Part shown: positions 1-12,201 of the stretch, one piece after another
Layout of the letters: every line of letters begins with the position of its first letter
Numbering within the stretch: the first letter of the stretch is position 1
NCBI GenBank assembly: GCA_035250975.1
Contig: DATFEP010000058.1
Span: 1 to 64,000, forward strand
Direction of reading: 5' to 3'
Source of the DNA: Nitrososphaeraceae archaeon
GTDB taxonomy: Archaea > Thermoproteota > Nitrososphaeria > Nitrososphaerales > Nitrososphaeraceae
Length of the DNA: 64,000 nt
Program-made: the position numbers and the translations under genes
The notes under the pieces: generated by a model
Database searches by the model: none
The model's input: the letters and a program-made list of their open reading frames with translations, nothing else
What the model was told of the DNA's origin: nothing

Positions 1-136
1 AGACAATGACAAAGATGACAAGAAGAAGAAAGACAATGACAAAGATGACAAGAAGAAGAAAGACAATGACAAAGATGACAAGAAGAAGAAAGACAATGAC
101 AAAGATGACAAGAAGAAGAAAGACAATGACAAAGAT
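1..136 (+). repeat. 30-bp perfect tandem repeat, about 4.5 copies visible (truncated by window edge)
   Basis: Unit agacaatgacaaagatgacaagaagaagaa repeats at 1, 31, 61, 91 with a partial copy at 121. Confidence 0.97.
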
Positions 137-139
137 TAG
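2..139 (+). CDS. 3' end of a CDS with a (DNDKDDKKKK)n charged tail, partial
   Basis: Frame +2 reads DNDKDDKKKK repeats and stops at TAG 137-139 exactly where the repeat ends, followed by a T-run near 160-167. Confidence 0.65.
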   Translation, partial: DNDKDDKKKKDNDKDDKKKKDNDKDDKKKKDNDKDDKKKKDNDKD

Positions 140-399
140 GATGGCGGAGATAATTAATATTTTTTTTCTTAAAAATATAGAATCTTTTACAGCGTACAAT
201 GTATAATTAAAATAATAATTACCTGTATCCTTTAATTCAAAACATAATGACTCTTTAATCTAATTTAAATTAATGAATAAATTTTGTTTTTGTGTATAGT
301 AAATATGTCTATAACTTGAGTTCTACTTAAGAGTTGTAGACAAAACAAGAAATTATTGTATCTAATAATAAAATTTAAAGTTCTCACATTCTCGCATTT

Positions 400-644
400 A
401 ATCCTCAATTGGGACCATATATGCAACAACATCATATCCTTAGCCAAAGCAAAATGTCTATAGCTATATCACTAGTAATAATGTCATTGCCAGCGATCCA
501 TTGGATGAGCTCATTATTCACAGTTCCATTAAATTGATTTGAACTGTATGTTCCTTGATATATGTTCCCAGAAGCAGAAGCTATTTTCATTAAATTAATA
601 ATACCAGCCAAGGATATTGATGAAATTATTAATATTATTGCCAT
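400..644 (-). pseudogene. Decayed secreted RTX-like (haemolysin-type Ca-binding repeat) protein
   Basis: Hydrophobic N-terminus, then about 9-aa periodic GTYSSNQFN/GTVNNELIQ/WIAGNDIIT/SDIAIDIL; after a frameshift it continues FG*GYDVV. Confidence 0.35.
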
Positions 645-1574
645 ATATTTTAAAAAAAATTTTTCATCGATATTATATAACTAAAAGAATTAATAATATT
701 TCGAAACATCAACATGTACTTAAAATCTGAAAAATGCAAATCATTTTTTTTGCGAATTAAAAACAGAAATTAATTTTGTATAGTTTAGATCTAATATAAA
801 ATCAAGATATGTACTAATATGTGATAAGTAATAGCACAACTACTTTTTTAAATATTCATATATAGTTTCAAAACAATTTCCAACTTTATAGACAGGAATT
901 CAAAATATAAAATAGAGAAAAGAGAAGATGTAGATTTTCAATTAATTAATGTATGATAAAAATTTTCATTGTCAAAATAACTCCTCATTTAATTTATACT
1001 TTTATACATATTATAACCGTCAAATTCGGTAAATTATATTAGATGATCAAAAATCATTCCGATAAATAAGTAAAGAGCAAATCCTAACGAGATCAATGAA
1101 AAACCAAAAGGAATTATCTTATTTTTAAATAAAGCATAGTTAAATCTTCTTGATTTATCTGTTGTCTTTGTCTGCACGTAAAATTATAGCTCTTTAAACT
1201 ATTTTTCTTTTCGAATATATTTTTAATAACATTCTTAAAATAAAATTTTATATTAGAATCTCAGAAGTGATAGCAATTGTTTTTACATACCAAAAATGGA
1301 ATATATTTCTACTTAGAAATGAGATGTTATAAAGCTTAGGATGGAATTTGAATATAATATTATAATTTAACATATGAAAGATCCTGACTAACAAAAATTC
1401 ATTTACATATACTTTTCAGAAAAAAATGTTTATTACAACTGAAAATGATATTTTTGATATTTATAAAATATATAAAAATTTAGTTAGTTACTATAGATGT
1501 AATCATATATTCGTGAAGTTTCCAAGCTTAATTTATTATAAGTATTTATTTCCACTCGGATTTAATTTATTAGA

Positions 1575-2375
1575 TTGAAATTTCTGCTTACAGAAACACA
1601 ATTAAATACCCTAATTATTAAAATCAATCGACCTGAAGTTTTAAACGCCTTGAATTTTGAGGTAGTTTCTGAAATATCTGAGACTCTTGATTCTATTTCT
1701 GCAGATGAAGAAATAAAAGCAATTATTATCACTGGTGAAGGAGAAAAGTCATTTTGTGTAGGGGGAGATCTGAAATATGTGTCTAATTTGAGCCCTAATG
1801 AAGCCGAATTATATGCGATGCATGTACATAAACTACTAAACAAAATTGAAAATTTTGATATGCCAGTGATAGCAGCAATAAACGGATATGCTCTAGGAGG
1901 AGGATGTCAATTGGCCTTAGCATGTGATCTAAGATTTGCTTCGAATAACGCCAAAATTGGGCAAACAGAGGTAACAATCGGAATTCCTCCAGGTTGGGGT
2001 GGAACTCAGAGATTGGCTAGAATTGTTGGAATCTCAAAAGCTAAAGAATTAATTTATACTGGTAGAATAATCTCAGCACATGAAGCAAAAGATATCGGCT
2101 TAGTAAATGAATTAGTTAAGTTCGAAATGAATCAATCAAATAAAAGTAAAATTGATCAGAAAAAAAAATTAAAACAAGAATCATTTATCTTTAGATGTAT
2201 TTCTTTATGTGAATTGATAACCAAAAATAATTCTTTTGCACTCAAGATAAGTAAAAGTTTGATCAATAAAGCAAGAGATGTAAATATAGAAGGTGGTCTT
2301 TTGATGGAGAGATATGGTTGTAGTCTTTGTTTTACAAAACTGAATGGGGAGAAGATTAGAGATTTATTATCTTAA
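1575..2375 (+). CDS. Enoyl-CoA hydratase/crotonase family protein
   Basis: INRPEVLNAL, FCVGGDL, AAINGYALGGG, GQTEVTIGIPPGWGGTQRLARIVG motifs. Confidence 0.92.
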   Translation: MKFLLTETQLNTLIIKINRPEVLNALNFEVVSEISETLDSISADEEIKAIIITGEGEKSFCVGGDLKYVSNLSPNEAELYAMHVHKLLNKIENFDMPVIAAINGYALGGGCQLALACDLRFASNNAKIGQTEVTIGIPPGWGGTQRLARIVGISKAKELIYTGRIISAHEAKDIGLVNELVKFEMNQSNKSKIDQKKKLKQESFIFRCISLCELITKNNSFALKISKSLINKARDVNIEGGLLMERYGCSLCFTKLNGEKIRDLLS

Positions 2376-3384
2376 CACTAGTGAAACAGAACATTCGATT
2401 CTAATGATATAGCGATGTAAGATATTATTATACTCTTTATGAATTCATTATTTCTTATAAATAAATTAAATTTAATTTAAATATCTTTTAAGCACCAAAT
2501 AGGTCTAAATTAAACATTTGACTTCGTTTCACATCACCTCTTCCGAAATATTTCAATATATTCTTTCGTCATAATCTGGCAGATTTCTAGATCATCATGG
2601 GGTGATTCGAAGTATTCTTGTTCCTATTCCTATTCAGCTTCAGGAGCTGTTCTTGTTATGCCAGTACTTCTGTTGTTGTTCCTCCTGTTGTTCCTGCTGA
2701 CAACGTTGCTGCTTCAGAAATTTTAAAAAGTATTTTTTGAATGAATATTACGTCATTTTATAAAGTTCATTGGATAATCAATTTCATTTAATCCTACATT
2801 CAATGTAATTACCGGATATGTGGAAAACATATTTTTCCTATTTTTGGTTCAGAAAATTTGATGACTCGTCTCGATATTTTCGGGTTTAATACTGTACTTT
2901 TTTTTGTTAATACTAAAATTTTTTCGAATTTTTATATCATAATAACTTCATAAATTCATTTCAATAATGCAAATATTTCAAAAATATTATTATATTTTTC
3001 TACTTTTTGTTAATTTATATTTTTTAGCAGTTAAGATCGAGTATTTAATAAGGTTTGATACGTTAGAGACAAACAAGATATTGGTATTTAGAACATGTTA
3101 AACTCATCTTACCGTTTTTAACTCAAAAATAAAATAGAGTACAAACAATGGTATCAAACTTGATTTCCAAGGCACAGGTTTAACGGTAGCAAAAATTTTA
3201 ATAATTCATGGATAACAAAAAAAAAGGAAAAGAAAATAATAAAAGAACTTGAATATAAAATAACTAGAAAATTCGGTGTAGAATTCCTAATTCTATAAAG
3301 TGTAGGTTTATTTGACTATTGACATCAATTTTTTATTTATTTTTTTCGGGATGAATAATTTTTTAAAAGAATTATAAATTGGAT

Positions 3385-4278
3385 TTATTCGTTATCCCCT
3401 TTCAATTCAAGATTTTCTATTTTATCTATCAGTTCGTTCATCTTGGCCGTGAAAGGGTGTTTTGGATGTTTCAATACAGTCATAAATTCTCTACTATCAA
3501 ATTGAATATCACAATAACACGGCACACTACTCATTACATCCATAGCAAGGTCTTTTTTCAATTTCTCGATGGTTTCAGATTGTTCATTTAGAACCACAGC
3601 ATAATTGCTCTCTGGTGTATATGAATACCCTTGAAGATTTGGGGGAAGACAATAGCCTGCAACTCTATTCAAAAGAAGATATGATTTAACTCCTAATTTC
3701 ATGAATGTGGAATAAATTTCACTAGCCATTCTTCTAGTTCCCGCTATATCTATACCATCCATTTTTAAAGAGAGTAAAATCATATCTGCAATAGCCAAAG
3801 AATTTATTGACCAATATCTTATTCCTGGGCTTGTATCAATTATGATATAGTCAATATTCTTTTTTGATGCCATTTCTTCTTTAATATGAATAAATTTTCT
3901 CAATAATTCTACTTTTGATGAGTCGCTACGTATAGCACCATCAAGTTTTGCTATCTCGTTTTTTGAAGAATTAGAGAAGGAAACAAAAAGTTTACCCATT
4001 CTTAAATTTTCATTATGGTTGAATTGCTCAGAGAAATTCTCTACTTTGTTGGTAAGATCATATACAACCTCATCAAAATCAGCTACTTCAAAAAGAAAGT
4101 CATTGATCCATTTATCCGGAGATGTGTTAAAATAAGTTTGCAGGCTCGGCGCGTAAACATCCATATCCAAAAGCAAAACGTTCAGTCCTCTACGAGTCAG
4201 TAGAGCTGCGATATTTGAACTCATAGTAGACTTTCCTGTACCACCCTTGTAGGAATGGAAGGCAATGCATTTTTTCAA
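3385..4278 (-). CDS. MinD/ParA family ATPase
   Basis: Deviant Walker A SYKGGTGKS, LLLDMD and YIIIDTSPG switch motifs. Confidence 0.9.
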   Translation of the reverse strand: MKKCIAFHSYKGGTGKSTMSSNIAALLTRRGLNVLLLDMDVYAPSLQTYFNTSPDKWINDFLFEVADFDEVVYDLTNKVENFSEQFNHNENLRMGKLFVSFSNSSKNEIAKLDGAIRSDSSKVELLRKFIHIKEEMASKKNIDYIIIDTSPGIRYWSINSLAIADMILLSLKMDGIDIAGTRRMASEIYSTFMKLGVKSYLLLNRVAGYCLPPNLQGYSYTPESNYAVVLNEQSETIEKLKKDLAMDVMSSVPCYCDIQFDSREFMTVLKHPKHPFTAKMNELIDKIENLELKGDNE

Positions 4279-4587
4279 TAAAATTGTAATTATGTCGTGT
4301 TTATTAAAATTTTCATATATTAGGATGGTTAGGAATAAATTTGACTCATAAATAGATTAGACATTTGAAAACATATTTTCCATTTTTTTCAGAATATATA
4401 AGAAAATTAGTTAGTGGCTATAGTTTGACATTATACATAAACTCGGTGGTAGATAGATTTTACTCTGTAAGATAAGATAATTAGCAAATTTGGTTAGAAA
4501 AAATAGGCTTATTGGTATACGTAATCTTATTTAATAGGTACAATCTTCTTTCAATATTGTGATGTTTGTTTTATAATCATTTTTAAA

Positions 4588-6174
4588 TTAAAATGTTACT
4601 TTTTTTGTCAAAGACTGGAACTTTTGAGGTAATTCAGAATTCCCAAAATTTTTGTCATCATATGCAGAATACATTTTTATCACCTGACCATGTTTTATCT
4701 GATGGTCTCCGATATAATGAATGATTTCTTTATATTTATGATCTAGTAGTATTAAATTTTCTGCCAGTGCTCCTTCTAACAAAATATGCCATCCATCACC
4801 TATATCCATAACTCTTCTCGCAAATATAATACCAGGACCCCAAATATTCTGATTATTGTTAATATCATTGACAATAAACACGGACCCAGACGCCAAGCCA
4901 ATTCTGATCCCAAGTTTGGAATCATCATCAAAAGCATTTTCATTGTGCTTGCGTAGTTCATTATGCAACTGGATACTTAGTTCAAGAGGAGCTTCAGGGT
5001 TTGAGATGAATCCTATTGCCATACCATCACCCGTTGCCAACACTTTTTTTTCAGTATTTTTTCGAAAAGCAGGACAGATAGATATCAAATTGTTTAGTAA
5101 TTCTATCTTCTGTATCTGCTTTCTTACAGATAACAACGGATTTGAAAGTCCTACTATATCTATAAAGAAAAAGTTTGCATTCAGAACTGTGGACTGTCCT
5201 ATGTTGGTCATTCCAGAGTCTCCATAAATTCCATGCAATTTAGCATAGACTTCTAAATGATTTTTATGAAAAGCCATATCTTGGTGAAAAACTGGATTTT
5301 CAGTAATAGGTTTCTTGCACACGCTACAGATTAGGGATACTTTCTTTGATGAAGACGGTCCTTGAAAAAGCAATCTTCCATTACCGTTAGTATTGATATT
5401 GACCCATTTTGAAGGTATTTTTTCTCCTGTGAAAGAGGCTATTCGGATCATTCTTTTACTATCTTCAGTATTTTTACCTTCGTCTATCTTCATTTCCAGT
5501 ATTGTATCAAATAAGGTACTCACTTTTTCAATAATGTTCTCATCAAGTGTTAAATTATTTACCGTAAATATGGATTTAATTCCTTTGCTTTTTAGAAAGA
5601 GAGATAATAGATTAATAAAACGTAATACGTCTTTTTCATCAAAAATTGTACATAGATGTGAAATTGAATCTAGTACTAAAACAGTATCATTACTATAACT
5701 ATCTTTACTTGTTGAACTATCAATATAGGCCAGATTTTCCTTATCTTTTGATGTTTTCAGATGATCAGGATTACGGGAGTTTTGTTCTTTATTATTTTTA
5801 CTATCTTTATCTATTTCTAAAAATCTTTGCTCGACTTCTTTAAGAGTTGAGAATAATTTATTATCTATATTTAATTTATTGTGAATATTTAAATCATCTG
5901 TATCCTCTTTTAGAAAAGGATTGACAAAAAGAGAATTAGAAAGAATTGTATCTGATTTAACATTAGGAAAGAAATTTCGAAATTGTTTTAACATAATATT
6001 GGAACTTATGTAAATCACATGGTTATTGTTAGCCAGGGATTCAGCCAAAAAAGTTTTACAATAAGTTGTCTTGCCGACAGCCCTTGGGCCTATCAGTAAG
6101 AAAAGATTATTGTCCTCTATCTCTTTATTTGATATTTTTCTTCCCAATAAGACATCAATACCAGGAATAGGCAT
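4588..6174 (-). CDS. KaiC/RAD55-type RecA-superfamily ATPase fused to a Zn-finger-like linker and a class III nucleotide cyclase domain
   Basis: N-terminal IPGIDVLL, Walker A GPRAVGKT, Walker B VLVLDS; CSVC...FHKNH linker; cyclase motifs FFFIDIVGLS, TGDGMAIGF, IRIGLASG, NIWGPGIIFARRVMD. Confidence 0.85.
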   Translation of the reverse strand: MPIPGIDVLLGRKISNKEIEDNNLFLLIGPRAVGKTTYCKTFLAESLANNNHVIYISSNIMLKQFRNFFPNVKSDTILSNSLFVNPFLKEDTDDLNIHNKLNIDNKLFSTLKEVEQRFLEIDKDSKNNKEQNSRNPDHLKTSKDKENLAYIDSSTSKDSYSNDTVLVLDSISHLCTIFDEKDVLRFINLLSLFLKSKGIKSIFTVNNLTLDENIIEKVSTLFDTILEMKIDEGKNTEDSKRMIRIASFTGEKIPSKWVNINTNGNGRLLFQGPSSSKKVSLICSVCKKPITENPVFHQDMAFHKNHLEVYAKLHGIYGDSGMTNIGQSTVLNANFFFIDIVGLSNPLLSVRKQIQKIELLNNLISICPAFRKNTEKKVLATGDGMAIGFISNPEAPLELSIQLHNELRKHNENAFDDDSKLGIRIGLASGSVFIVNDINNNQNIWGPGIIFARRVMDIGDGWHILLEGALAENLILLDHKYKEIIHYIGDHQIKHGQVIKMYSAYDDKNFGNSELPQKFQSLTKKVTF

Positions 6175-6389
6175 AATTATCAGAGATTGACCTGAATATT
6201 TATAGTTAAGTTATTAGTTTAAGAATATAATTTTGAAATAAAATTGTGGTTGCTATATTTTTTAAAGGTTTTCTCGTAGTAAAATAATTACTTTAAATCT
6301 TATATAACAGTCTCGTTCAAAAATATAATACCAGTACATCTTTTTGCAATTAGATAAAATACACACTTTATTTTCAATGTAATTAACTA

Positions 6390-6842
6390 CCGTCATCTCC
6401 TAGTGTTTTATTCAATAATTTACTATCTTTAAATCCTGCAAAGCAAATCTCTACTTCCTCTATCTAAAGTTCCTAATCTTCCTGTAAGATGGTATAACTT
6501 TTGAGGTAGTGAAACATAACTTTTTACTAGGTTCATACATCGTACATCTCTATATATGTTCCTATGATCTAGGTCAAACAAAAATCATGATAATGAATTA
6601 GTTACTTGTGTATGATTTGTAATATACAACAAGTATTAGAAATCTGTCTTTTTCTGAATTTTTGAAATGTCTTCCTCCTGAATGTATACATCTGATTCTC
6701 TTCTTTCTGGATAAATATTTTATCTAATATTTTGGATATTTTTATTCTAATTACTTGTATATTGAATCAATTTCGATAATTGCAATCCAGTAAAAGACCT
6801 GAACAATAACGGCTTTTCAGATAATATGCCGTAATTTAGCAA
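6390..6842 (-). mobile_element. Degenerate IS5-like transposase N-terminal remnant
   Basis: Manual translation across frameshifts and stops: MLNYGILSEKPLLFRSFTG...GGRHFKNSEKDRFLILVVYY...FLFDLDHRNIYRD...LPQKLYHLTGRL...EEVEICFAGFK, resembling the HTH region of IS5-type DDE transposases; ends approximate. Confidence 0.7.
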
Positions 6843-7251
6843 ATATATAAAGAATTGCCCTAGATAAGAGGAATATGGCTATAGCTTTCTAATTATGCAA
6901 AAAGATCAAGTATACAAACTATGATCTATAAATAAATTTAATAAAAATTCGTTAAAATACGCCAAAAAAATAAACCAGATTGGTATTCGCATTATTACAT
7001 CAAAACATCTTAAAAGATAATTTAGATTGCATATATTAAAGTGGAATACGATATTAAAATAGTCAGCAGCAAAATTTTTTTATAAAAATCGATGGTTCTT
7101 TTGTCACAGTTTCATGCTTTATCATTCTATCATTGTTCCTGCATCTTAAGAATTTTCTGCGCGAAACGATTTACATATAGAAATGAAAGATTTGAACGAA
7201 ATTTGGAAAAAAATAAGTAAGGAAACTTGATACCAACAATGAATAAAGCTG

Positions 7252-8016
7252 TTGTTAACTGACTATAACCAAAAAAATTGGATTATATTAATTTGTTTGA
7301 TTGTTATACAATCAACTATACTTTTGATTCTTTTGTTGCCGCTTGAACTATTCGGTCAAAACAACACACCCAAGACCATAGAAAACACAAACCCAGACAA
7401 TATGGAAACTAAGTATTCTGAAACTGAACATGATAAAGGAGTAACAATAGGAACTATAAAGGAATATGCAGAAGTAATAAGTATTTTTCTTGAAGTAATA
7501 ATTATCATACTTTTAGCGAAAACGGTAAAAGATTTCGCAGAGTTAGCTAAAGGGAGTAAATTACAAACAGAAGTAAGGTTTAGACCATGGGTAGGTCCTC
7601 ATGGTGGAATAGAATTTATGAGAAGTGATAATGATAACAAGCAGTATTTTATTAAAATAAAAAATTTTGGAGAAATACCCGCATCTAATGTTACAGCAAT
7701 TTCCATAGTAGCAGATTCGGTCCCGAAAAAAGATTTTTTGTCGACCTTAACCAAAAACAATTCTTTCGATAGTAAAAATAAAGAAAATAATATTAATAAA
7801 TTCAGTATTGGACCTCTCCTTCCCGGTATGGAGAAAAGATACTGGATTTTCATAAAAGAAGCAATGATAAAAAACGCAAAAGAAGGAACATCCGATCTAT
7901 TTATATTATTTTACTTTTCCTATGACTTTGCTGGTGGAAAAAGCGGATATGGAATGATAAGTAAATTTGATAAAAATACAGACACTTTTGTTCATATCGA
8001 TATGTGGATTGACTAG
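7252..8016 (+). CDS. Hypothetical membrane-anchored protein
   Basis: 254-aa ORF, two hydrophobic segments followed by RPWVG and a beta-rich domain. Confidence 0.75.
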   Translation: MLTDYNQKNWIILICLIVIQSTILLILLLPLELFGQNNTPKTIENTNPDNMETKYSETEHDKGVTIGTIKEYAEVISIFLEVIIIILLAKTVKDFAELAKGSKLQTEVRFRPWVGPHGGIEFMRSDNDNKQYFIKIKNFGEIPASNVTAISIVADSVPKKDFLSTLTKNNSFDSKNKENNINKFSIGPLLPGMEKRYWIFIKEAMIKNAKEGTSDLFILFYFSYDFAGGKSGYGMISKFDKNTDTFVHIDMWID

Positions 8017-8194
8017 ATGCATGAAACCATCCGTTTTTGGTAGTCTGAGATAGCCTCTTAAATTTTCCTGTAATATTGTCTTCGACAAAAGAGATAATTT
8101 CAAGATTTTAGCAGTATTTTTGATCTACTTTTTTTAAATTTCTTAAAAAAAGAATTAAATCTTGGATGTCTATAATGTCTTGACGTATTGAGAT

Positions 8195-8542
8195 ATGACC
8201 GGTAAAACTAAAAAAAATGATGAAAAAAATGATGAACAGTCACAAGACAGTCCTCTTCCTAATCCCTTTACTTCCATGATAGAATTTTGGCAAAAATATT
8301 CAACAAATTGGATGGAACAATATGGAGAATTTATAAAAGACATCCAACGGATTGGGGAGTTACAGAAAGAATCATTGAAAAATACTCAAAGGATGAGTGA
8401 ATTATATAAAGAATTAGTAGGTACCGTCGAAAATATGAATCTATTATATAAAGAATCTGTAAAAATTACAGAAAGAATGACCAGATATTGGGTAGATTAT
8501 TCAAAATCTTTCTTTCAAAAAGAAAAAGAAGGGTCCGACTAA
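8195..8542 (+). CDS. Amphipathic helical protein (phasin-like, tentative)
   Basis: 115 aa, periodic helical repeats, Trp/Phe-rich ends, no TM segment. Confidence 0.65.
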   Translation: MTGKTKKNDEKNDEQSQDSPLPNPFTSMIEFWQKYSTNWMEQYGEFIKDIQRIGELQKESLKNTQRMSELYKELVGTVENMNLLYKESVKITERMTRYWVDYSKSFFQKEKEGSD

Positions 8543-8974
8543 AATAAATTATATTTTATACAAAAGTCTTACAAAATACATGAAAAATATTGAATAAATT
8601 TTATATTCATAAGCACATCTGTTTTATAGCTTCTTTATTTATGTAGATGTGAATAGATCAAAAAAATTGTAACGTAAAATGCATAGAAATATTCATTAGA
8701 TATCATTTAGGAAAGGTATTTTCGTATGATAAAATTTATTTTTTGACCAATCTTAAATATTATATGAAAACCAAGAAACGAAATTATTAAGTATTATACC
8801 GAAATAGAGTTTTTTGACACGAAAAGTAAACGCAAATTATTTTCAATAGATTTTATTTTGTAGATCATCACATGACAAACCAATCTCTATAACAAGTAAC
8901 ATAAGTCTATTGTAGAAATCTCTATTAAATTTCTTTTAGGAACCCAAGACAGAAAAAAAATTACCGTTGTTCTT

Positions 8975-9223
8975 TTAGTCAAAGTCTTCATGTTCATTCA
9001 GCATACCAAAACTGTTGTAAAATTTACATTCTGGTATACAACCAGTAAATTGGTTACATCCAATTCCATCATAACTACCCTGACCATTATTTCTTCTGTA
9101 CCATGAGCTTTTGTGAAAATACCATTGTGATTTATATTCCTGATATCTAGCTTCTGGACTAACCTTTTTCAATACTTGGTTGTCTTCGGATATCGATAAC
9201 CTGTTCGCCACAGATAATAACAA
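8975..9223 (-). CDS. Small hypothetical protein with C-x4-C-x3-C motif
   Basis: 82-aa ORF with GCNQFTGCIPECKFY and non-random composition. Confidence 0.55.
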   Translation of the reverse strand: MLLSVANRLSISEDNQVLKKVSPEARYQEYKSQWYFHKSSWYRRNNGQGSYDGIGCNQFTGCIPECKFYNSFGMLNEHEDFD

Positions 9224-9499
9224 CAGTTTAACATTTATATGAATACAGTAAGATTAACCTGTAAAAAAATTCTCTATAATTATTCAGATAATTTAAAGAT
9301 TTAATAAATATACGACATCCTTATTTAGTCCTAGGAAAGTTTAACATATCTATCAAGTATATATCAAATCCGAAAAACTAATGTGAAAATAAATCAATAA
9401 TTGATTCTTTATTTTTTAATAATAAATTCACAATATTTGTATATTACGCTAAAAAAGACACTTATGGATAAGTATCTATCTTGTTTTTAATTTGTTGAC

Positions 9500-10165
9500 C
9501 TACCTAGTATTATTCACACTATTATATCTTTTTTCTTGTCCTATTGTTATTTCTTTTAATATTGAAATAAGCATGACGGATGCCAAAATTAAAGCTATAT
9601 TTGTTATAACGTTTGAAATTGGTTGTGATAATAGCGATCCGCCTATGAGAGGGAAAAATATCGAAAAAAGAAACAAAACCCACCAGCGTTTAACATTAGA
9701 GTTCGAATCCCTTAAAGAGAATTCATTTGAAACACTGGCAATTTGGCTAAAAGTCCAAATTTCTTTCATGATGTAATAAGGTTTCCAGAGATTAATAATA
9801 GGAATGATACAATAGCCTACGGCCTTTATTGGTGAAAATTTCAGACCATTTACCTCTAATGAATAAAGATTGCTGTAAGATCTATAGAACCAATATAGAA
9901 AGATAATAGATATCGTTAGAAATACCATTGAATATAAGGCGCCATACAAGTAGGTAAAATCTGAAGAAAAAATTGATACCTGACCAGAAGGCTTAGCCGT
10001 ATTTGAGTTTAGGCCAAGATTGCCGTCTTCTGAAGTAGTGAATAAAATAACGCTCATTGCTATAGAAATCAGATTAAATAGGATACCAATACAAAGAACA
10101 ATAGTTAAAAATCGAGAAAGTCTGTTAAGTGGAACATAGGAATGTAGTCTACTTGGATAGCTCAT
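9500..10165 (-). CDS. DUF4328-like integral membrane protein
   Basis: Multiple TM helices, WFYRSYSNL and IIPIINLWKPY motifs, RWW near C-terminus. Confidence 0.75.
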   Translation of the reverse strand: MSYPSRLHSYVPLNRLSRFLTIVLCIGILFNLISIAMSVILFTTSEDGNLGLNSNTAKPSGQVSIFSSDFTYLYGALYSMVFLTISIIFLYWFYRSYSNLYSLEVNGLKFSPIKAVGYCIIPIINLWKPYYIMKEIWTFSQIASVSNEFSLRDSNSNVKRWWVLFLFSIFFPLIGGSLLSQPISNVITNIALILASVMLISILKEITIGQEKRYNSVNNTR

Positions 10166-10766
10166 ATTTATTCTTAAAAAAATGGTAGATAAAAGCTTTT
10201 TAAAGTGATTGATGTTTGAGAAGTAGCCAATATATACTGTACATTTCTACTAAAAATATTTTTTCAACAAATATTGACTTATTCTAATTAGATTAAAATA
10301 ATTAAATTTTATATTTTTAAACGTTTAATAAAATGTGTGACTAATAAGCAATTTTAAAAGTATGAATCGATTTTGACTTTCCAAGACTTAAACTGGCAAA
10401 CGAATATATTAAAAACAAAATGTGATCTAAATAAGTATTTATATACTTCATATCGTCTGAAGGAATTTAAAAATCATATTTACGATCCTTTTATTATATT
10501 TCCTCCTAAATACCGTTGAATTTAACCTATCCAAATCAAAGGATCGGTATAGAGCTAATATGATGTAATTTCACACGTATAAGATAGAAACTAAATGAAA
10601 TATTCGTTTCCAGTTTCCTCTAGTACTACAATAGTTCTAGCATGTGTGAAATTTAAAGTTAATTTTTGAAAGCAAATGATGATCTGTTCATTTATAATAA
10701 ATCGTCGTTATGATATTCTACGATAGAATAGATCAAATTAAATAACATGTATCTTACATATCAATA

Positions 10767-11042
10767 GTGAGTTCAGATAATATGAATAAAGACAATATCT
10801 GTAAAATTCACAATACTGCATATAGAAATGGGAAAACTTTCGAGGAATGCAAAGAGGTTGCAGTTTCTGCTACAGAACATTTATCTAAAGAAATTGAAAC
10901 CAATAAGGAGATCTCATGGTCTAAAGTACTTGTATATGTAGATCATGATGAACTCATTTACAAATTAACTTTAAAATACCTTAGGCAGAAAGGGTATGAC
11001 ATTGGTAATAATAAAACACCCATAATAAAAAAGAGCAAGTAA
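10767..11042 (+). CDS. Hypothetical protein
   Basis: 91-aa ORF with protein-like composition. Confidence 0.65.
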   Translation: MSSDNMNKDNICKIHNTAYRNGKTFEECKEVAVSATEHLSKEIETNKEISWSKVLVYVDHDELIYKLTLKYLRQKGYDIGNNKTPIIKKSK

Positions 11043-11148
11043 AAAGCGAATGGAAAAATCATAAAAGATGAATTACATCGTAACAACAATAAATAATAAT
11101 AGAAGCTGTTGGCTTGGTAACAATTTTATTCACCGGACATGAAAAATA

Positions 11149-11532
11149 TTAACGACCGCTTCCAGGTAAACCTATACCTTTTAATGGTGATCGATATTCA
11201 CTCTCTTTTATTACACCCTCTTTAGTAGTTACTTTAACGTCATCGATTTGGGTATCTGGTCTTGGGTAGAAAAAGAAAAATTCTCCTGGTTTGAGAATAT
11301 TCATTTTCTGGATATCATTCTTTCCTAATATCACTTGAATACCTGTTAATGGCTGCAGACCAGTATTAGAAACCTTAACTCTGTAAAAAGTTCCTGAAAT
11401 GTCAGTTTTATCCTTAATTGCATCTATTTCTAACGCATAAGGTGGTTTATTTTGTTCCTTATAAATAAGGAACAGAATTATTAAGCAGGCTAATAAAATT
11501 GCAGATATAATCAGGTAATTGATTATTTTCAA
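11149..11532 (-). CDS. Membrane-anchored protein with small Ig/CARDB-like beta domain
   Basis: N-terminal TM helix, then VKVSNTG...LKPGE pattern. Confidence 0.7.
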   Translation of the reverse strand: MKIINYLIISAILLACLIILFLIYKEQNKPPYALEIDAIKDKTDISGTFYRVKVSNTGLQPLTGIQVILGKNDIQKMNILKPGEFFFFYPRPDTQIDDVKVTTKEGVIKESEYRSPLKGIGLPGSGR

Positions 11533-11736
11533 ATCCTAGAAAATACTAATTCCTAAAGAATATTTGAATTATTGCTTTAGGCCCAGTAACAAGAAGAAAT
11601 ATTTTTTACAAAATTGGAATATAATATTGATATTTTTTGCTTTTTGTTCTATAAATTATTCCTAATTAAATCATTTATTACATATATAAAGAGAAGATTA
11701 TCAAATTACTTTTTTATTCCTAAGCATATATAATGT

Positions 11737-11922
11737 GTGGCAATGCAAGAATGCAGCTGTAATAATTCTCATATCAATAAAGTAATGGAGGTTTTCAAGG
11801 TATCAAGCCACTTGACTATATTAAAATGTGGCAAGTGTGGGGGAAGTATTGGCGAATGGATAGATAAAGTTTCCCTACCTAAAAGATCATATCATAAAGA
11901 TACTCGACAATTATTAACATGA
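11737..11922 (+). CDS. Small Zn-ribbon protein
   Basis: CSC...CGKCGG in 61 aa. Confidence 0.6.
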   Translation: MAMQECSCNNSHINKVMEVFKVSSHLTILKCGKCGGSIGEWIDKVSLPKRSYHKDTRQLLT

Positions 11923-12201
11923 TCGTTTTTGAAAATTAATATATAATATCAAACTATAAAGAGAGATTAGATTATAAATAAAATTAAAAATTAGAGCAAA
12001 TTAGTATATTTATAGAATAATTGAATACAATATACGGAGTAGTTTTTGAAACAGCTTAAATATCCCCATCAATAATTTCTTACCATTACCAAGTCAAATA
12101 TTGTCATGACTTTGAATGAATTGATATGGATAAATTCTGTATTTCTAAAAACAAAAAGGTTAAAAAAAATAAGTAAAAGAAAATAGTGGAAAAGATTTTT
12201 G

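What the first reader, a model, noticed from the sequence alone, without database searches (positions are those of the whole stretch)
3385..6174. KaiC/RAD55 ATPase-Zn finger-class III cyclase fusion paired with a MinD/ParA ATPase: candidate archaeal cyclic-nucleotide signalling module
Seen: one 528-aa protein joins a RecA-fold KaiC/RAD55-type ATPase (GPRAVGKT, VLVLDS), a CxxC...HxxH linker and a class III cyclase with both metal-binding Asp (IDIVG, TGDG); a MinD/ParA ATPase follows 309 nt downstream on the same strand. Established: single-domain KaiC-like ATPases are proposed signalling hubs in archaea, and MinD/ParA proteins position cargo. Inference: ATPase nucleotide state or oligomerisation could gate cyclase dimerisation, with MinD localising or reading out the signal. 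I know of no characterised protein with this architecture.
Basis: partly seen in the sequence, partly recalled or inferred. Interest (0 to 1): 0.8.

Follow-up and report, generated by a model that had tools for sequence, protein, structure and literature searches.

The report
KaiC-cyclase fusion with ParA partner
Soil ammonia-oxidising archaea of one family nearly all carry a gene pair: one protein joins an ATP-binding switch, a zinc knuckle and a cyclic-nucleotide-synthase-like domain, and its neighbour is a ParA/MinD-type ATPase; the pair is a real, conserved, uncharacterised signalling module built from known parts.

Summary
ORF 4588-6174(-) encodes a 528-aa protein with three parts. The first is a KaiC/RecA-fold domain (VIA Z 20.8). 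The second is an invariant CxxC...HxxH knuckle. The third is a class III cyclase-fold domain (Z 19-20; family profile vs the adenylyl cyclase Ma1120, E 5e-15). A ParA/MinD-fold ATPase, 3385-4278(-), follows after 309 nt.

The fusion is not a one-off. It matched in 104 of 121 genomes and 18 of 18 genera of the family. It was not found full-length in 16 genomes of other families of the order.

The ParA/MinD-like gene is linked in 34 of 41 loci examined. In other genera it lies directly upstream in operon-like order; in the window's genus the order is rearranged. In one genus the fusion and its linked paralogue are missing together.

The KaiC-like domain keeps Walker A and B but has no catalytic Glu. 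The cyclase keeps both metal Asp and the Arg residues, but the base-specifying Lys/Asp are Leu/Asn and the canonical Asn is Ile, all invariant. So the product is open.

My best reading is an ATP-gated, ParA-coupled nucleotidyl cyclase module. Automatic annotation already names the architecture, and I found no paper on it. Novelty: new variant of known kinds. Interest: moderate.

The parts
4588..6174 (-). Gene for the 528-aa fusion protein (KaiC-like domain, Zn knuckle, class III cyclase-fold domain); the end coordinate 4588 includes the stop codon
   Evidence: ORF list; translation; Pfam. More than 1000 homologues of about 500 aa. Model pLDDT 78.
5365..6174 (-). KaiC/RecA-fold domain, residues 1-270. 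Walker A G34-K35-T36 and Walker B D169-S170 are present. There is no acidic residue at 57-61 after strand 2.
   Evidence: PF06745 at E 1.7e-9. A1 profile vs PDB: KaiC at 2.4e-12, PH0284 and FlaH. VIA: KaiC Z 20.8, rmsd 3.3 A over 211 residues; PH0284 Z 19.9. Residue counts.
5194..5364 (-). Linker with a Cys2-His2 knuckle, residues 271-327 (C283, C286, H303, H306), ending in a helix (304-316) that leads into the cyclase domain
   Evidence: All four ligands are invariant in 36 of 36 sequences. The model shows two short strands then a helix; pLDDT is 46-73 per 10-residue block, lowest at 271-280 and 311-327. Metal binding is inferred, not tested.
4615..5193 (-). Class III nucleotidyl-cyclase-fold domain, residues 328-520. 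Metal Asp D339 and D383; Arg R424 and R454. Non-canonical L379, N443 and I450.
   Evidence: PF00211 at 22.2 bits vs cut-off 21.9. A2 profile vs Ma1120 at E 5.3e-15. VIA: OaPAC Z 19.9, rmsd 2.2 A over 178 residues; Ma1120 Z 19.2, rmsd 1.9 A. This is the most conserved part: 68% mean identity against 37% for the KaiC-like part.
4279..4587 (.). 309-nt spacer between the two genes. A TATA-like TTTAATAA ends 22 nt upstream of the TTG start of the ParA/MinD-like gene.
   Evidence: Sequence read. The related genome G016 has about 1.65 kb inserted here. The promoter role is inferred from position only, in an AT-rich genome.
3385..4278 (-). Gene for the 297-aa ParA/MinD-type deviant-Walker-A ATPase. 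K11 and K16 lie in KGGTGKS; D38 and D40 are present; Walker B is D148. Conserved C210, C254, C256 and H274.
   Evidence: Pfam and NCBIfam. Alignment A3 of 22 sequences. A3 profile vs PDB: Soj at 4.3e-12 and MinD at 1.3e-10. Model pLDDT 80.7, pTM 0.85. Foldseek: archaeal MinD and Soj at TMt 0.73-0.79.

Best explanation
This is a conserved two-gene cytoplasmic signalling module of the family Nitrososphaeraceae. NCBI names the close homologues that way; the genome itself is unnamed.

Gene 1 encodes a nucleotidyl cyclase of the class III fold. Its regulatory N-terminus is a KaiC/ArlH-like RecA-fold domain that binds ATP but probably hydrolyses it poorly. The two are joined by a rigid Cys2-His2 knuckle and a helix. 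Gene 2 encodes a ParA/MinD-type ATPase that is the fusion's dedicated partner.

Proposed mechanism (inferred). ATP-dependent self-association of the KaiC-like domains brings cyclase domains together into the head-to-tail dimers that class III cyclases need for activity. The ParA/MinD-type ATPase, in its ATP-bound dimer state, either holds the assembly at a place in the cell or acts as its on/off regulator. The fusion takes the partner role that ParB plays for the paralogous ParA in the same genome.

The cyclase is most likely catalytically active, because the two-metal site and the phosphate-binding Arg residues are invariant and this is the most conserved domain. Its base pocket is non-canonical (Leu/Asn instead of Lys/Asp), so the nucleotide made cannot be named.

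Shown: the architecture, the folds, the residue conservation, the family-wide distribution, the conserved linkage and the joint absence. Inferred: ATP gating, physical binding of the two proteins, catalytic activity and the product.
For: Architecture and folds.

Invariant residues: Walker A and B, the Zn ligands, D339, D383, R424 and R454 are invariant in 36 of 36 sequences. The cyclase domain is the most constrained part, at 68% mean identity against 37% for the KaiC-like domain. That argues for a retained active site.

Precedent for activity without the canonical Asn: Ma1120, the best-scoring match of the cyclase-domain family profile (A2) among solved structures, is an active adenylyl cyclase with Ala at that position, and putting Asn there lowers activity (PMC4215837, passages read; alignment).

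Distribution: 23 of 24 other genomes of the genus matched. In the family, 104 of 121 genomes and 18 of 18 genera matched at E<=1e-40. All three parts were present in 20 of 20 loci from 17 other genera.

Linkage: a ParA/MinD-like gene is adjacent in 17 of 21 loci of the own genus and in 17 of 20 loci of other genera. In 14 of those 20 it lies directly upstream on the same strand with a gap of 0-97 nt. No third gene is conserved with the pair; the next non-shadow ORF cluster is in 11 of 21 loci of the own genus and 6 of 20 elsewhere. The linkage survives four different orientations.

Joint absence: in genus g18, five fusion-negative genomes (three of them 98-99% complete) each have only two ParA-like hits. 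Five fusion-positive genomes each have a hit adjacent to the fusion, and in all five it is the best-scoring hit.

Partner logic: the paralogous ParA-like gene of this genome sits in an HK-REC-ParA-ParB row, whereas no ParB-like gene lies on the window's contig.

RNA libraries: contigs from 4 soil metatranscriptome runs of 4 studies, 95-99% alike, lie on both genes (3402-4265 and 4654-6164).
Against: No activity, binding or localisation was measured.

The base-specifying Lys and Asp of adenylyl cyclases are Leu379 and Asn443, and the canonical transition-state Asn is Ile450. A pseudo-enzyme or an unusual reaction therefore cannot be excluded.

The Pfam cyclase score of the window protein is only 0.3 bits above the cut-off.

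The KaiC-like domain lacks the catalytic Glu, so 'ATPase state' may not cycle at all.

Linkage is missing in 7 of 41 loci. Of these, 5 have no ParA/MinD-like gene within the flanks held (3-7 kb per side): L015, L016, L055, L058 and L059. In one of them the orthologue lies on another contig. The other 2 (L013, L020) are cut by contig ends.

In the window's genus the genes are mostly divergent, or 309 nt to 2 kb apart, so co-transcription is not general.

In a tree of the ParA-like proteins the fusion-linked ones are not one clade; the ParB-linked paralogues nest among them.

The genomes are related, so loci and genomes are not independent counts.

RNA-library contigs cannot prove transcription, as the tool itself notes.
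Confidence: 0.5

Rival explanations
1. The cyclase-fold domain is a non-catalytic (pseudo-enzyme) nucleotide-binding or dimerisation domain. The module's output then runs through the KaiC-like and ParA-like NTPases, for instance as a nucleotide-sensing scaffold, and no second messenger is made.
For: Three of the six canonical class III active-site positions are non-canonical and fixed: L379, N443 and I450. The Pfam score is marginal. No CAP-type cNMP-binding domain was found in the own genome or in 3 other genomes of the genus (0 of 4). None was found in the sampled genomes of genera g20, g21 and g22 either, although these do carry the fusion.
Against: Both metal-binding Asp and both Arg residues are invariant in the 36 fusion homologues and in the 20 cyclase-domain relatives of A2. 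The domain is the most conserved part of the protein. Ma1120 shows that the Asn is dispensable. cNMP receptors other than CAP-type domains were not searched for.
Confidence: 0.2
2. The fusion is an ordinary cAMP- or cGMP-forming cyclase. The ParA/MinD-like neighbour has an unrelated housekeeping role in partition or positioning and merely shares a locus.
For: The genome holds 9 further PF00211 matches, so cAMP signalling is plausible here. ParA-like paralogues with a ParB partner exist. In the window the genes are 309 nt apart, with a possible own promoter.
Against: Linkage holds in 34 of 41 loci across 18 genera and four orientations, and no other neighbour is conserved. The two genes are absent together in genus g18. 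No ParB-like gene lies on the window's contig. The base-specifying residues are not those of adenylyl or guanylyl cyclases. Seven other cyclase-domain ORFs of this genome read by eye do carry a Lys at the -4 position and an Asn-x3-Arg pair.
Confidence: 0.1
3. The pair is an anti-virus defence system of the cyclic-nucleotide type, in which a cyclase makes an alarm signal.
For: There are weak PADLOC matches: mad8 at E 2.7e-5 to the KaiC-like part and PDC-M28B at E 1.4e-10 to the ParA-like protein. Cyclase-fold enzymes are used in some defence systems (recalled, not tested here).
Against: It is near-universal and mostly single-copy within one family, with identity that follows taxonomy. That is the pattern of a core gene rather than of a patchy defence island. 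No effector gene is conserved beside it. The PADLOC hits are to generic P-loop folds.
Confidence: 0.04

Closest known systems
Single-domain archaeal KaiC-like ATPases (ArlH/FlaH, PH0284, PH0186) and cyanobacterial KaiC
   Same: Same RecA-type fold: VIA Z 19.9-20.8 over residues 1-276, PF06745 above its cut-off. It has Walker A, Walker B and the N-terminal IPG...L motif.
   Different: It has no acidic catalytic residue after strand 2. It scores far below the NCBIfam equivalog cut-offs: ArlH 31.1 vs 215 bits, KaiC 31.9 vs 408 bits. It carries a 30-residue low-confidence insert at 131-161. It is fused to a cyclase.
Class III adenylyl cyclases Ma1120 (M. avium) and Rv1900c (M. tuberculosis)
   Same: Same fold: Ma1120 Z 19.2 at rmsd 1.9 A and TMt 0.81 for both. 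The A2 profile gives E 5.3e-15 and 1.7e-9. Both metal Asp and the transition-state Arg are kept. Like Ma1120, it has no Asn at the canonical position.
   Different: Ma1120 K101 and D157 correspond to Leu379 and Asn443 here, and A167 to Arg453. The N-terminal regulatory domain is KaiC-like. The product is unknown.
Cyclase fused to a STAND-type P-loop NTPase and TPR repeats (seen here in bacterial relatives P0222, P0238, P0251)
   Same: The same cyclase subfamily (35-45% identity to residues about 330-520) is joined in one polypeptide to a P-loop NTPase thought to act as a switch.
   Different: There the NTPase is AAA_16 or NB-ARC and lies C-terminal to the cyclase. Here it is RecA/KaiC-type and N-terminal, with a Zn knuckle between and a ParA partner gene.
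ParA/MinD-type ATPases with a dedicated partner (Soj-Spo0J, MinD-MinE, McdA-McdB, FleN-FleQ)
   Same: It has a deviant Walker A with the signature Lys, the MinD/Soj fold (TMt 0.73-0.79), and a conserved adjacent partner gene. Its paralogue in the same genome pairs with a ParB.
   Different: The partner is a KaiC-cyclase fusion, not ParB, MinE or McdB. No conserved C-terminal extension follows the last helix. Conserved Cys and His residues lie in the PCYCDIQF region. It scores below the minD_arch and ParA_partition cut-offs.

Membership tests
KaiC/RecA-like ATPase superfamily (Pfam PF06745) | Profile match above the curated cut-off | tested here: met
   37.8 bits vs cut-off 26.6, E 1.7e-9. A1 profile vs KaiC in PDB, E 2.4e-12.
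KaiC/RecA-like ATPase superfamily (Pfam PF06745) | RecA-type core fold | tested here: met
   VIA Z 20.8, rmsd 3.3 A, 211 residues aligned to KaiC. PH0284 Z 19.9, rmsd 2.7 A.
KaiC/RecA-like ATPase superfamily (Pfam PF06745) | Walker A GxxxxGK[ST] and Walker B hhhhD | tested here: met
   G34, K35, D169 and S170 are invariant in 36 of 36; T36 in 35 of 36.
KaiC/RecA-like ATPase superfamily (Pfam PF06745) | Catalytic Glu at the end of strand 2 (position recalled from KaiC and RecA) | tested here: not met
   Positions 57-61 after strand 52-56 hold S/N, S, N/T/S, a hydrophobic residue and T (33 of 36; I or M in 3). None is acidic in 36 of 36. The equivalence of positions rests on the model's secondary structure, not on a residue-level structural alignment.
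KaiC/RecA-like ATPase superfamily (Pfam PF06745) | Hexameric ring; autophosphorylation | not testable with these tools
   No multimer model or assay was available.
ArlH/FlaH (archaellum protein; NCBIfam NF052589) | Equivalog score cut-off | tested here: not met
   31.1 bits vs cut-off 215. The JGI label 'archaellum biogenesis ATPase FlaH' is a fold-level name only.
Class III nucleotidyl cyclase (Pfam PF00211) | Profile match and fold | tested here: met
   22.2 bits vs cut-off 21.9. A2 profile vs Ma1120, E 5.3e-15. Z 19.2-19.9.
Class III nucleotidyl cyclase (Pfam PF00211) | Two metal-binding Asp | tested here: met
   D339 and D383 are invariant in 36 of 36 and in 20 of 20 wider relatives.
Class III nucleotidyl cyclase (Pfam PF00211) | Transition-state Arg | tested here: met
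   R454 aligns with Ma1120 R168 and is invariant.
Class III nucleotidyl cyclase (Pfam PF00211) | Transition-state Asn | tested here: not met
   I450 in 36 of 36. It aligns with A164 of the active cyclase Ma1120. An Asn is present at this position in six more distant members of the subfamily.
Class III nucleotidyl cyclase (Pfam PF00211) | Base-specifying pair (Lys/Asp for ATP; Glu with Cys, Ser or Gly for GTP) | tested here: not met
   L379 and N443 align with Ma1120 K101 and D157. Both are invariant in 36 of 36.
Class III nucleotidyl cyclase (Pfam PF00211) | Cyclase activity; head-to-tail dimer | not testable with these tools
   No assay was possible.
ParA/MinD (deviant Walker A) ATPases | KGGxGK[ST] with the signature Lys, plus profile match and fold | tested here: met
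   K11 to K16 are invariant in 22 of 22. AAA_31 74.5 bits, ParA 57.1 bits and CbiA 44.6 bits are all above their cut-offs. MinD and Soj TMt 0.73-0.79.
MinD proper (NCBIfam minD_arch TIGR01969; minD_bact) | Curated score cut-off | tested here: not met
   43.3 bits vs cut-off 201.75; 31.9 bits vs cut-off 212.9.
MinD proper (NCBIfam minD_arch TIGR01969; minD_bact) | C-terminal amphipathic membrane-targeting helix | tested here: inconclusive
   The alignment ends at or just after the last core helix and shows no conserved extension. No helix-amphipathicity analysis was done.
ParA partition ATPase (NCBIfam NF041546) | Curated cut-off and an adjacent ParB | tested here: not met
   59.3 bits vs cut-off 180. 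ParB-like genes occur only on contigs C87 and C2, not on the window's contig. The paralogue on C87 does have a ParB neighbour.

The most novel reading that the evidence does not exclude
The module is a ParA-coupled second-messenger system. A KaiC-like ATP switch and a ParA/MinD-type ATPase together control a cyclase whose fixed Leu/Asn base pocket makes a nucleotide signal other than cAMP or cGMP. That signal is read by a receptor that is not a CAP-type domain. This would fit the genera, including the window's, that carry the fusion but showed no PF00027 domain. The ParA-type protein would itself be the spatial output or the receptor.
Probability: 0.15. Interest if true: 0.8.

Novelty: new variant of a known kind. 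Interest (0 to 1): 0.5.

Why it matters
Signal transduction in ammonia-oxidising archaea is almost unstudied. Nitrososphaeraceae dominate archaeal nitrification in soils. This gene pair matched in 104 of 121 sampled genomes of the family. It was not found full-length in the 16 sampled genomes of other families of the order. It is therefore a candidate lineage-defining regulator of soil forms.

It offers a concrete, testable case for the proposal that KaiC-like domains act as archaeal signalling hubs. It would also be a case of a ParA/MinD-type ATPase whose dedicated partner is a signalling enzyme rather than a DNA-binding or division protein. The fixed, non-canonical base pocket makes the product worth determining.

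If the protein turns out to be an ordinary adenylyl cyclase, the finding reduces to one more regulatory-domain combination among the many known for class III cyclases.

Tried and rejected
Complex prediction of fusion plus ParA/MinD-like protein, full length, with alignments A1 and A3: no verdict. The score was 0.01 against a mark of 0.32 and the controls were not run. This says nothing for or against binding.

Single-sequence search of the cyclase domain against PDB: only Cas10 at E 0.3 and Rv1900c at E 1.7. It was superseded by the profile search.

The first 90 residues alone against PDB: only generic P-loop matches (ABCE1, ORC4). This gave no residue-level alignment to KaiC, so the 'no catalytic Glu' statement rests on the model's strand positions together.

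PADLOC: only weak, generic hits. I took these as not supporting a defence role.

Rfam on window 1-12000: no match.

The sigma-70 and terminator scan: 19 promoter-like sites against 26.2 expected. It is uninformative for an archaeon.

RNA-library contigs: none lay on the spacer 4279-4587 or on the flanks 3000-3401 and 6165-7000.

Tree of the ParA-like proteins (39 rows, none dropped): I hoped the fusion-linked proteins would form one clade apart from the ParB-linked paralogues. They do not (3 label changes). No outgroup was included and no root was tested.

Search for a third conserved gene: none. The ORF clusters numbered 2 and 3 (both calls) and 8 and 10 are antisense shadows inside the two genes.

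Literature: Makarova, Galperin and Koonin 2017 (mBio 8:e01959-17) is not held under its DOI or its PMC id. It may describe this architecture, and I could not check. Searches returned no paper on a KaiC-cyclase fusion or on its ParA link; I judged this from the listings plus the passages read. One search found none of its terms in PMC2447327. My recollection that Rv0386 uses Gln/Asn for substrate selection could therefore not be confirmed and is not used as evidence. Supplementary files were not consulted.

Unpublished genomes G073 and G111 are counted in the tally, where both matched. G073 is also counted, with no PF00027 match. No locus was fetched from either genome, and no other claim rests on them.


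Full report
WHAT IS THERE. On the minus strand, ORF 4588-6174 encodes 528 aa and ORF 3385-4278 encodes 297 aa. They are 309 nt apart.

Pfam assigns the N-terminal half of the long protein to KaiC (PF06745, E 1.7e-9). It assigns residues 334-474 to the class III cyclase domain (PF00211) at only 22.2 bits against a cut-off of 21.9. The short protein matches AAA_31, ParA and CbiA. In NCBIfam it matches a 'KGGVGR-variant' AAA model, ParA_partition and minD_arch, all below their curated cut-offs.

SECURING THE DOMAIN CALLS. A search of 5.8 billion proteins returned more than 1000 homologues, mostly 490-530 aa. Where a name is given, NCBI calls them Nitrososphaeraceae archaeon, and JGI calls them 'archaellum biogenesis ATPase FlaH/class 3 adenylate cyclase' or 'KaiC/GvpD/RAD55 family RecA-like ATPase/class 3 adenylate cyclase'.

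An alignment of 36 of them (A1, 42-98% identity) gave an AlphaFold2 model with mean pLDDT 78. Foldseek and VIA-align place residues 1-276 on KaiC (Z 20.8, rmsd 3.3 A, 211 residues), PH0284 (Z 19.9) and FlaH. They place residues 325-511 on class III cyclases: OaPAC at Z 19.9 and rmsd 2.2 A, Ma1120 at Z 19.2 and rmsd 1.9 A.

A profile of 20 cyclase-domain relatives (A2) hits Ma1120 at E 5.3e-15 and 42 cyclase chains at E<=0.01. The cyclase assignment is therefore sound despite the marginal Pfam score.

RESIDUES. All of the following are invariant in 36 of 36 sequences.
- KaiC-like domain: G34 and K35 (T36 in 35 of 36); D169 and S170.
- Knuckle: C283, C286, H303 and H306.
- Cyclase domain: D339, L379, D383, R424, N443, I450, R453, R454, K494 and H495.

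The model has strand 2 at residues 52-56. The five residues after it (57-61) are never acidic. In KaiC and RecA the catalytic Glu sits there; that position is recalled, and I could not obtain a residue-level structural alignment (one search gave only generic P-loop hits). I therefore read the N-domain as an ATP-binding, probably hydrolysis-poor switch. I recall ArlH/FlaH being described as a weak ATPase of this kind; that too is recalled, not checked here.

For the cyclase, the HMMER alignment to Ma1120 can be combined with the Ma1120 mutagenesis paper (PMC4215837, passages read). This gives K101 to L379, D157 to N443, A164 to I450, A167 to R453 and R168 to R454. The two-metal site and the Arg residues are thus kept, while the adenine-specifying pair is replaced by Leu/Asn. 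The canonical Asn is absent, exactly as in the active enzyme Ma1120, where restoring Asn lowers activity. Lack of Asn is therefore no argument for inactivity, and the substrate base cannot be inferred.

The cyclase domain is the most conserved part: 68% mean identity to the window protein, against 51.5% for the knuckle region and 36.6% for the KaiC-like domain.

DISTRIBUTION. In 41 genomes sampled around the window's genome, 23 of 24 other genomes of the genus matched. Of the 16 genomes of other families of the order, 2 matched, and only over the C-terminal domain.

In a family-wide draw, 104 of 121 genomes matched at E<=1e-40. Among genomes at least 90% complete the figure is 73 of 81, and 18 of 18 genera matched. 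This tally includes two unpublished genomes, G073 and G111.

In 20 loci fetched from 17 other genera, the KaiC-like part and the knuckle-cyclase part were both found, adjacent and on one strand, in 20 of 20. In L066 both genes are split.

A full HMMER scan of 1.84 billion cluster representatives found 2824 proteins at E<=0.001, but only 79 at E<=1e-30. Of the 150 listed, about two dozen match beyond the cyclase domain (counted by eye). The rest share only the cyclase domain. In a sample of 10 of these, that domain is combined with a methyltransferase, FHA plus protein kinase, AAA_16 or NB-ARC plus TPR, or a cupredoxin.

So the cyclase subfamily is widespread. In the genomes searched here, full-length matches came only from this family, and the database homologues that carry an organism name are called Nitrososphaeraceae.

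THE PARTNER GENE. The short protein has the deviant Walker A with the signature Lys (K11, K16), D38 and D40, and Walker B D148, all invariant in 22 of 22. Its model (pLDDT 80.7, pTM 0.85) matches archaeal MinD, Soj, FlhG, McdA and FleN about equally (TMt 0.66-0.79). Its profile hits Soj at 4.3e-12 and MinD at 1.3e-10.

It cannot be filed as MinD or as ParA proper, because the NCBIfam cut-offs are not reached. Its paralogue on contig C87 (about 49-52% identity by the two searches) sits in a row of histidine kinase, receiver, ParA-like and ParB (ParB_N plus HTH_ParB) genes. No ParB-like gene lies on the window's contig.

LINKAGE. In the window's genus I examined 21 loci: the window and L013-L032.
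- 17 have a ParA/MinD-like ORF next to the fusion.
  - 12 are divergent, with 209-708 nt between starts by tblastn ends.
  - 2 are as in the window, with the fusion upstream.
  - 3 are second copies, in three other arrangements.
- L020 shows the start of such a gene at the contig end.
- L013 ends 954 nt after the fusion. Its orthologue starts another contig.
- L015 and L016 have none within 5-7 kb. For one of them the orthologue is on another contig.

In the other genera, 17 of 20 loci are linked.
- In 14 the ParA/MinD-like gene lies directly upstream on the same strand, with 0-97 nt between the longest ORFs.
- In 2 it lies upstream with about 350-365 nt between.
- In 1 it lies 2.07 kb downstream.
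- In 3 there is none within 3-6 kb.

No other gene is conserved with the pair. The likely ancestral state is thus an operon ordered ParA-like then fusion, and the window shows a derived order.

In genus g18, five genomes without the fusion each have two ParA-like hits (best 45-48% identity). Five genomes with the fusion each have a hit of 48-54% identity that lies beside the fusion. These genomes are kin, so this may be a single loss. Still, the two genes go together.

In the tree of 39 ParA-like proteins the linked ones are not one clade; the ParB-linked paralogues nest inside. This is neutral to mildly against a long separate history. It is consistent with partner switching within one ParA-like family.

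EXPRESSION HINTS. Contigs from four soil metatranscriptome libraries of four studies, 95-99% alike, lie on 3402-4265 and on 4654-6164. The tool warns that DNA can be present in such libraries, so I take this only as compatible with expression.

CONTEXT IN THE GENOME. The genome (94.6% complete) has 10 PF00211 matches. Pfam confirmed the domain in four that I scanned, one of them with a C-terminal receiver. Read by eye in the translations, seven of the nine other ORFs carry a Lys at the -4 position and an Asn-x3-Arg pair. Two more look like cyclase-receiver fusions and two look cupredoxin-fused. The 225-aa ORF on C90 resembles the window's divergent subfamily.

No CAP-type cNMP-binding domain (PF00027) was found in the genome. 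In the family it was found in 24 of 41 genomes and 10 of 14 genera, but in 0 of 4 genomes of the window's genus and in none of the sampled g20, g21 and g22 genomes. All of those genera carry the fusion.

A paper on soil nitrifiers lists class III adenylate cyclases among the clusters conserved in Nitrososphaeraceae (PMC13577086, passages read). It does not describe this architecture.

HOW IT MOST LIKELY WORKS. Class III cyclases are active only as head-to-tail dimers (established knowledge). KaiC-like domains self-associate around bound ATP (established for KaiC; recalled for ArlH). I therefore propose that ATP binding to the N-domain drives assembly, which pairs the cyclase domains through the rigid knuckle-helix linker. 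The ParA/MinD-type ATPase would bind the assembly in its ATP-dimer state, either to place it or to switch it, with the fusion in the role that ParB has for the paralogue. All of this paragraph is inference. What is shown is the anatomy, the conservation and the genetic coupling.

COMPARISON AND NOVELTY. Each part belongs to a known superfamily. The combination, KaiC-like plus Zn knuckle plus class III cyclase with a dedicated ParA/MinD-type partner, is labelled by pipelines. It is not described in any paper my searches reached. The main survey of archaeal KaiC-like proteins could not be read (it is cited in PMC5847659). I rate it a new variant of known kinds, of moderate interest. It is a good, tractable target rather than a surprise.

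Noticed in passing
window 4365-4387; L014:5124-6775 (G016): Relative to the window, G016 carries about 1.65 kb inserted in the fusion/ParA-like spacer. About 23 nt of the window are shared by both flanking alignments, which may be a duplicated target. In G019 the assembly breaks here. Parts of the insert match contigs C31, C87 and C12 of the window's genome at 69-75% identity, so it looks like a repeated, possibly mobile, non-coding element.
   Followed up: partly
G000 contig C87:59836-65451 (L067): A row on one strand of histidine kinase, receiver domain, ParA-like paralogue (about 49-52% identity to the window's) and ParB (ParB_N + HTH_ParB), followed by a 465-aa membrane-like protein with no Pfam match. 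The ParB neighbour recurs beside the paralogue in G012 and G016. It looks like a ParAB pair wired to a two-component system.
   Followed up: partly
window 3385-4278 (residues C210, C254, C256, H274): The ParA/MinD-like family has invariant Cys and His residues, including the motif PCYCDIQF, in the C-terminal part of the fold where I recall ParA/MinD proteins carrying an IPxD-type motif. This could be a metal or redox site.
   Followed up: no
own genome, contigs C42, C28, C20, C23, C31, C36, C2, C44, C90: There are nine further class III cyclase-domain ORFs. Two have a cupredoxin-like N-terminus and three have a C-terminal receiver domain (one confirmed by Pfam, the rest read by eye). No CAP-type cNMP-binding domain was found in this genome or in 3 other genomes of the genus.
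   Followed up: partly
window 6175-7251: A 1,077-nt stretch upstream of the fusion has no ORF of 60 aa or more; the longest is 50 aa. There is no Rfam match.
   Followed up: partly
window 1-206: The window opens with a tandem repeat that translates to repeated MTKMTRRRKT units on one strand and repeated hydrophobic units on the other.
   Followed up: no
L066 (G054:C46): Both the ParA/MinD-like gene and the fusion are split into two reading frames here. These could be pseudogenes or assembly errors, in a 5-Mb genome that is 81% complete.
   Followed up: no
relatives: e.g. G019:C26:49664-50239, G014:C165:5780-6358; protein P0147: Many genomes of the family also hold a protein of about 400 aa whose N-terminal domain is the same divergent cyclase subfamily (45-53% identity to residues about 325-518). 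It has no KaiC-like part, and its C-terminal half has no Pfam match.
   Followed up: partly
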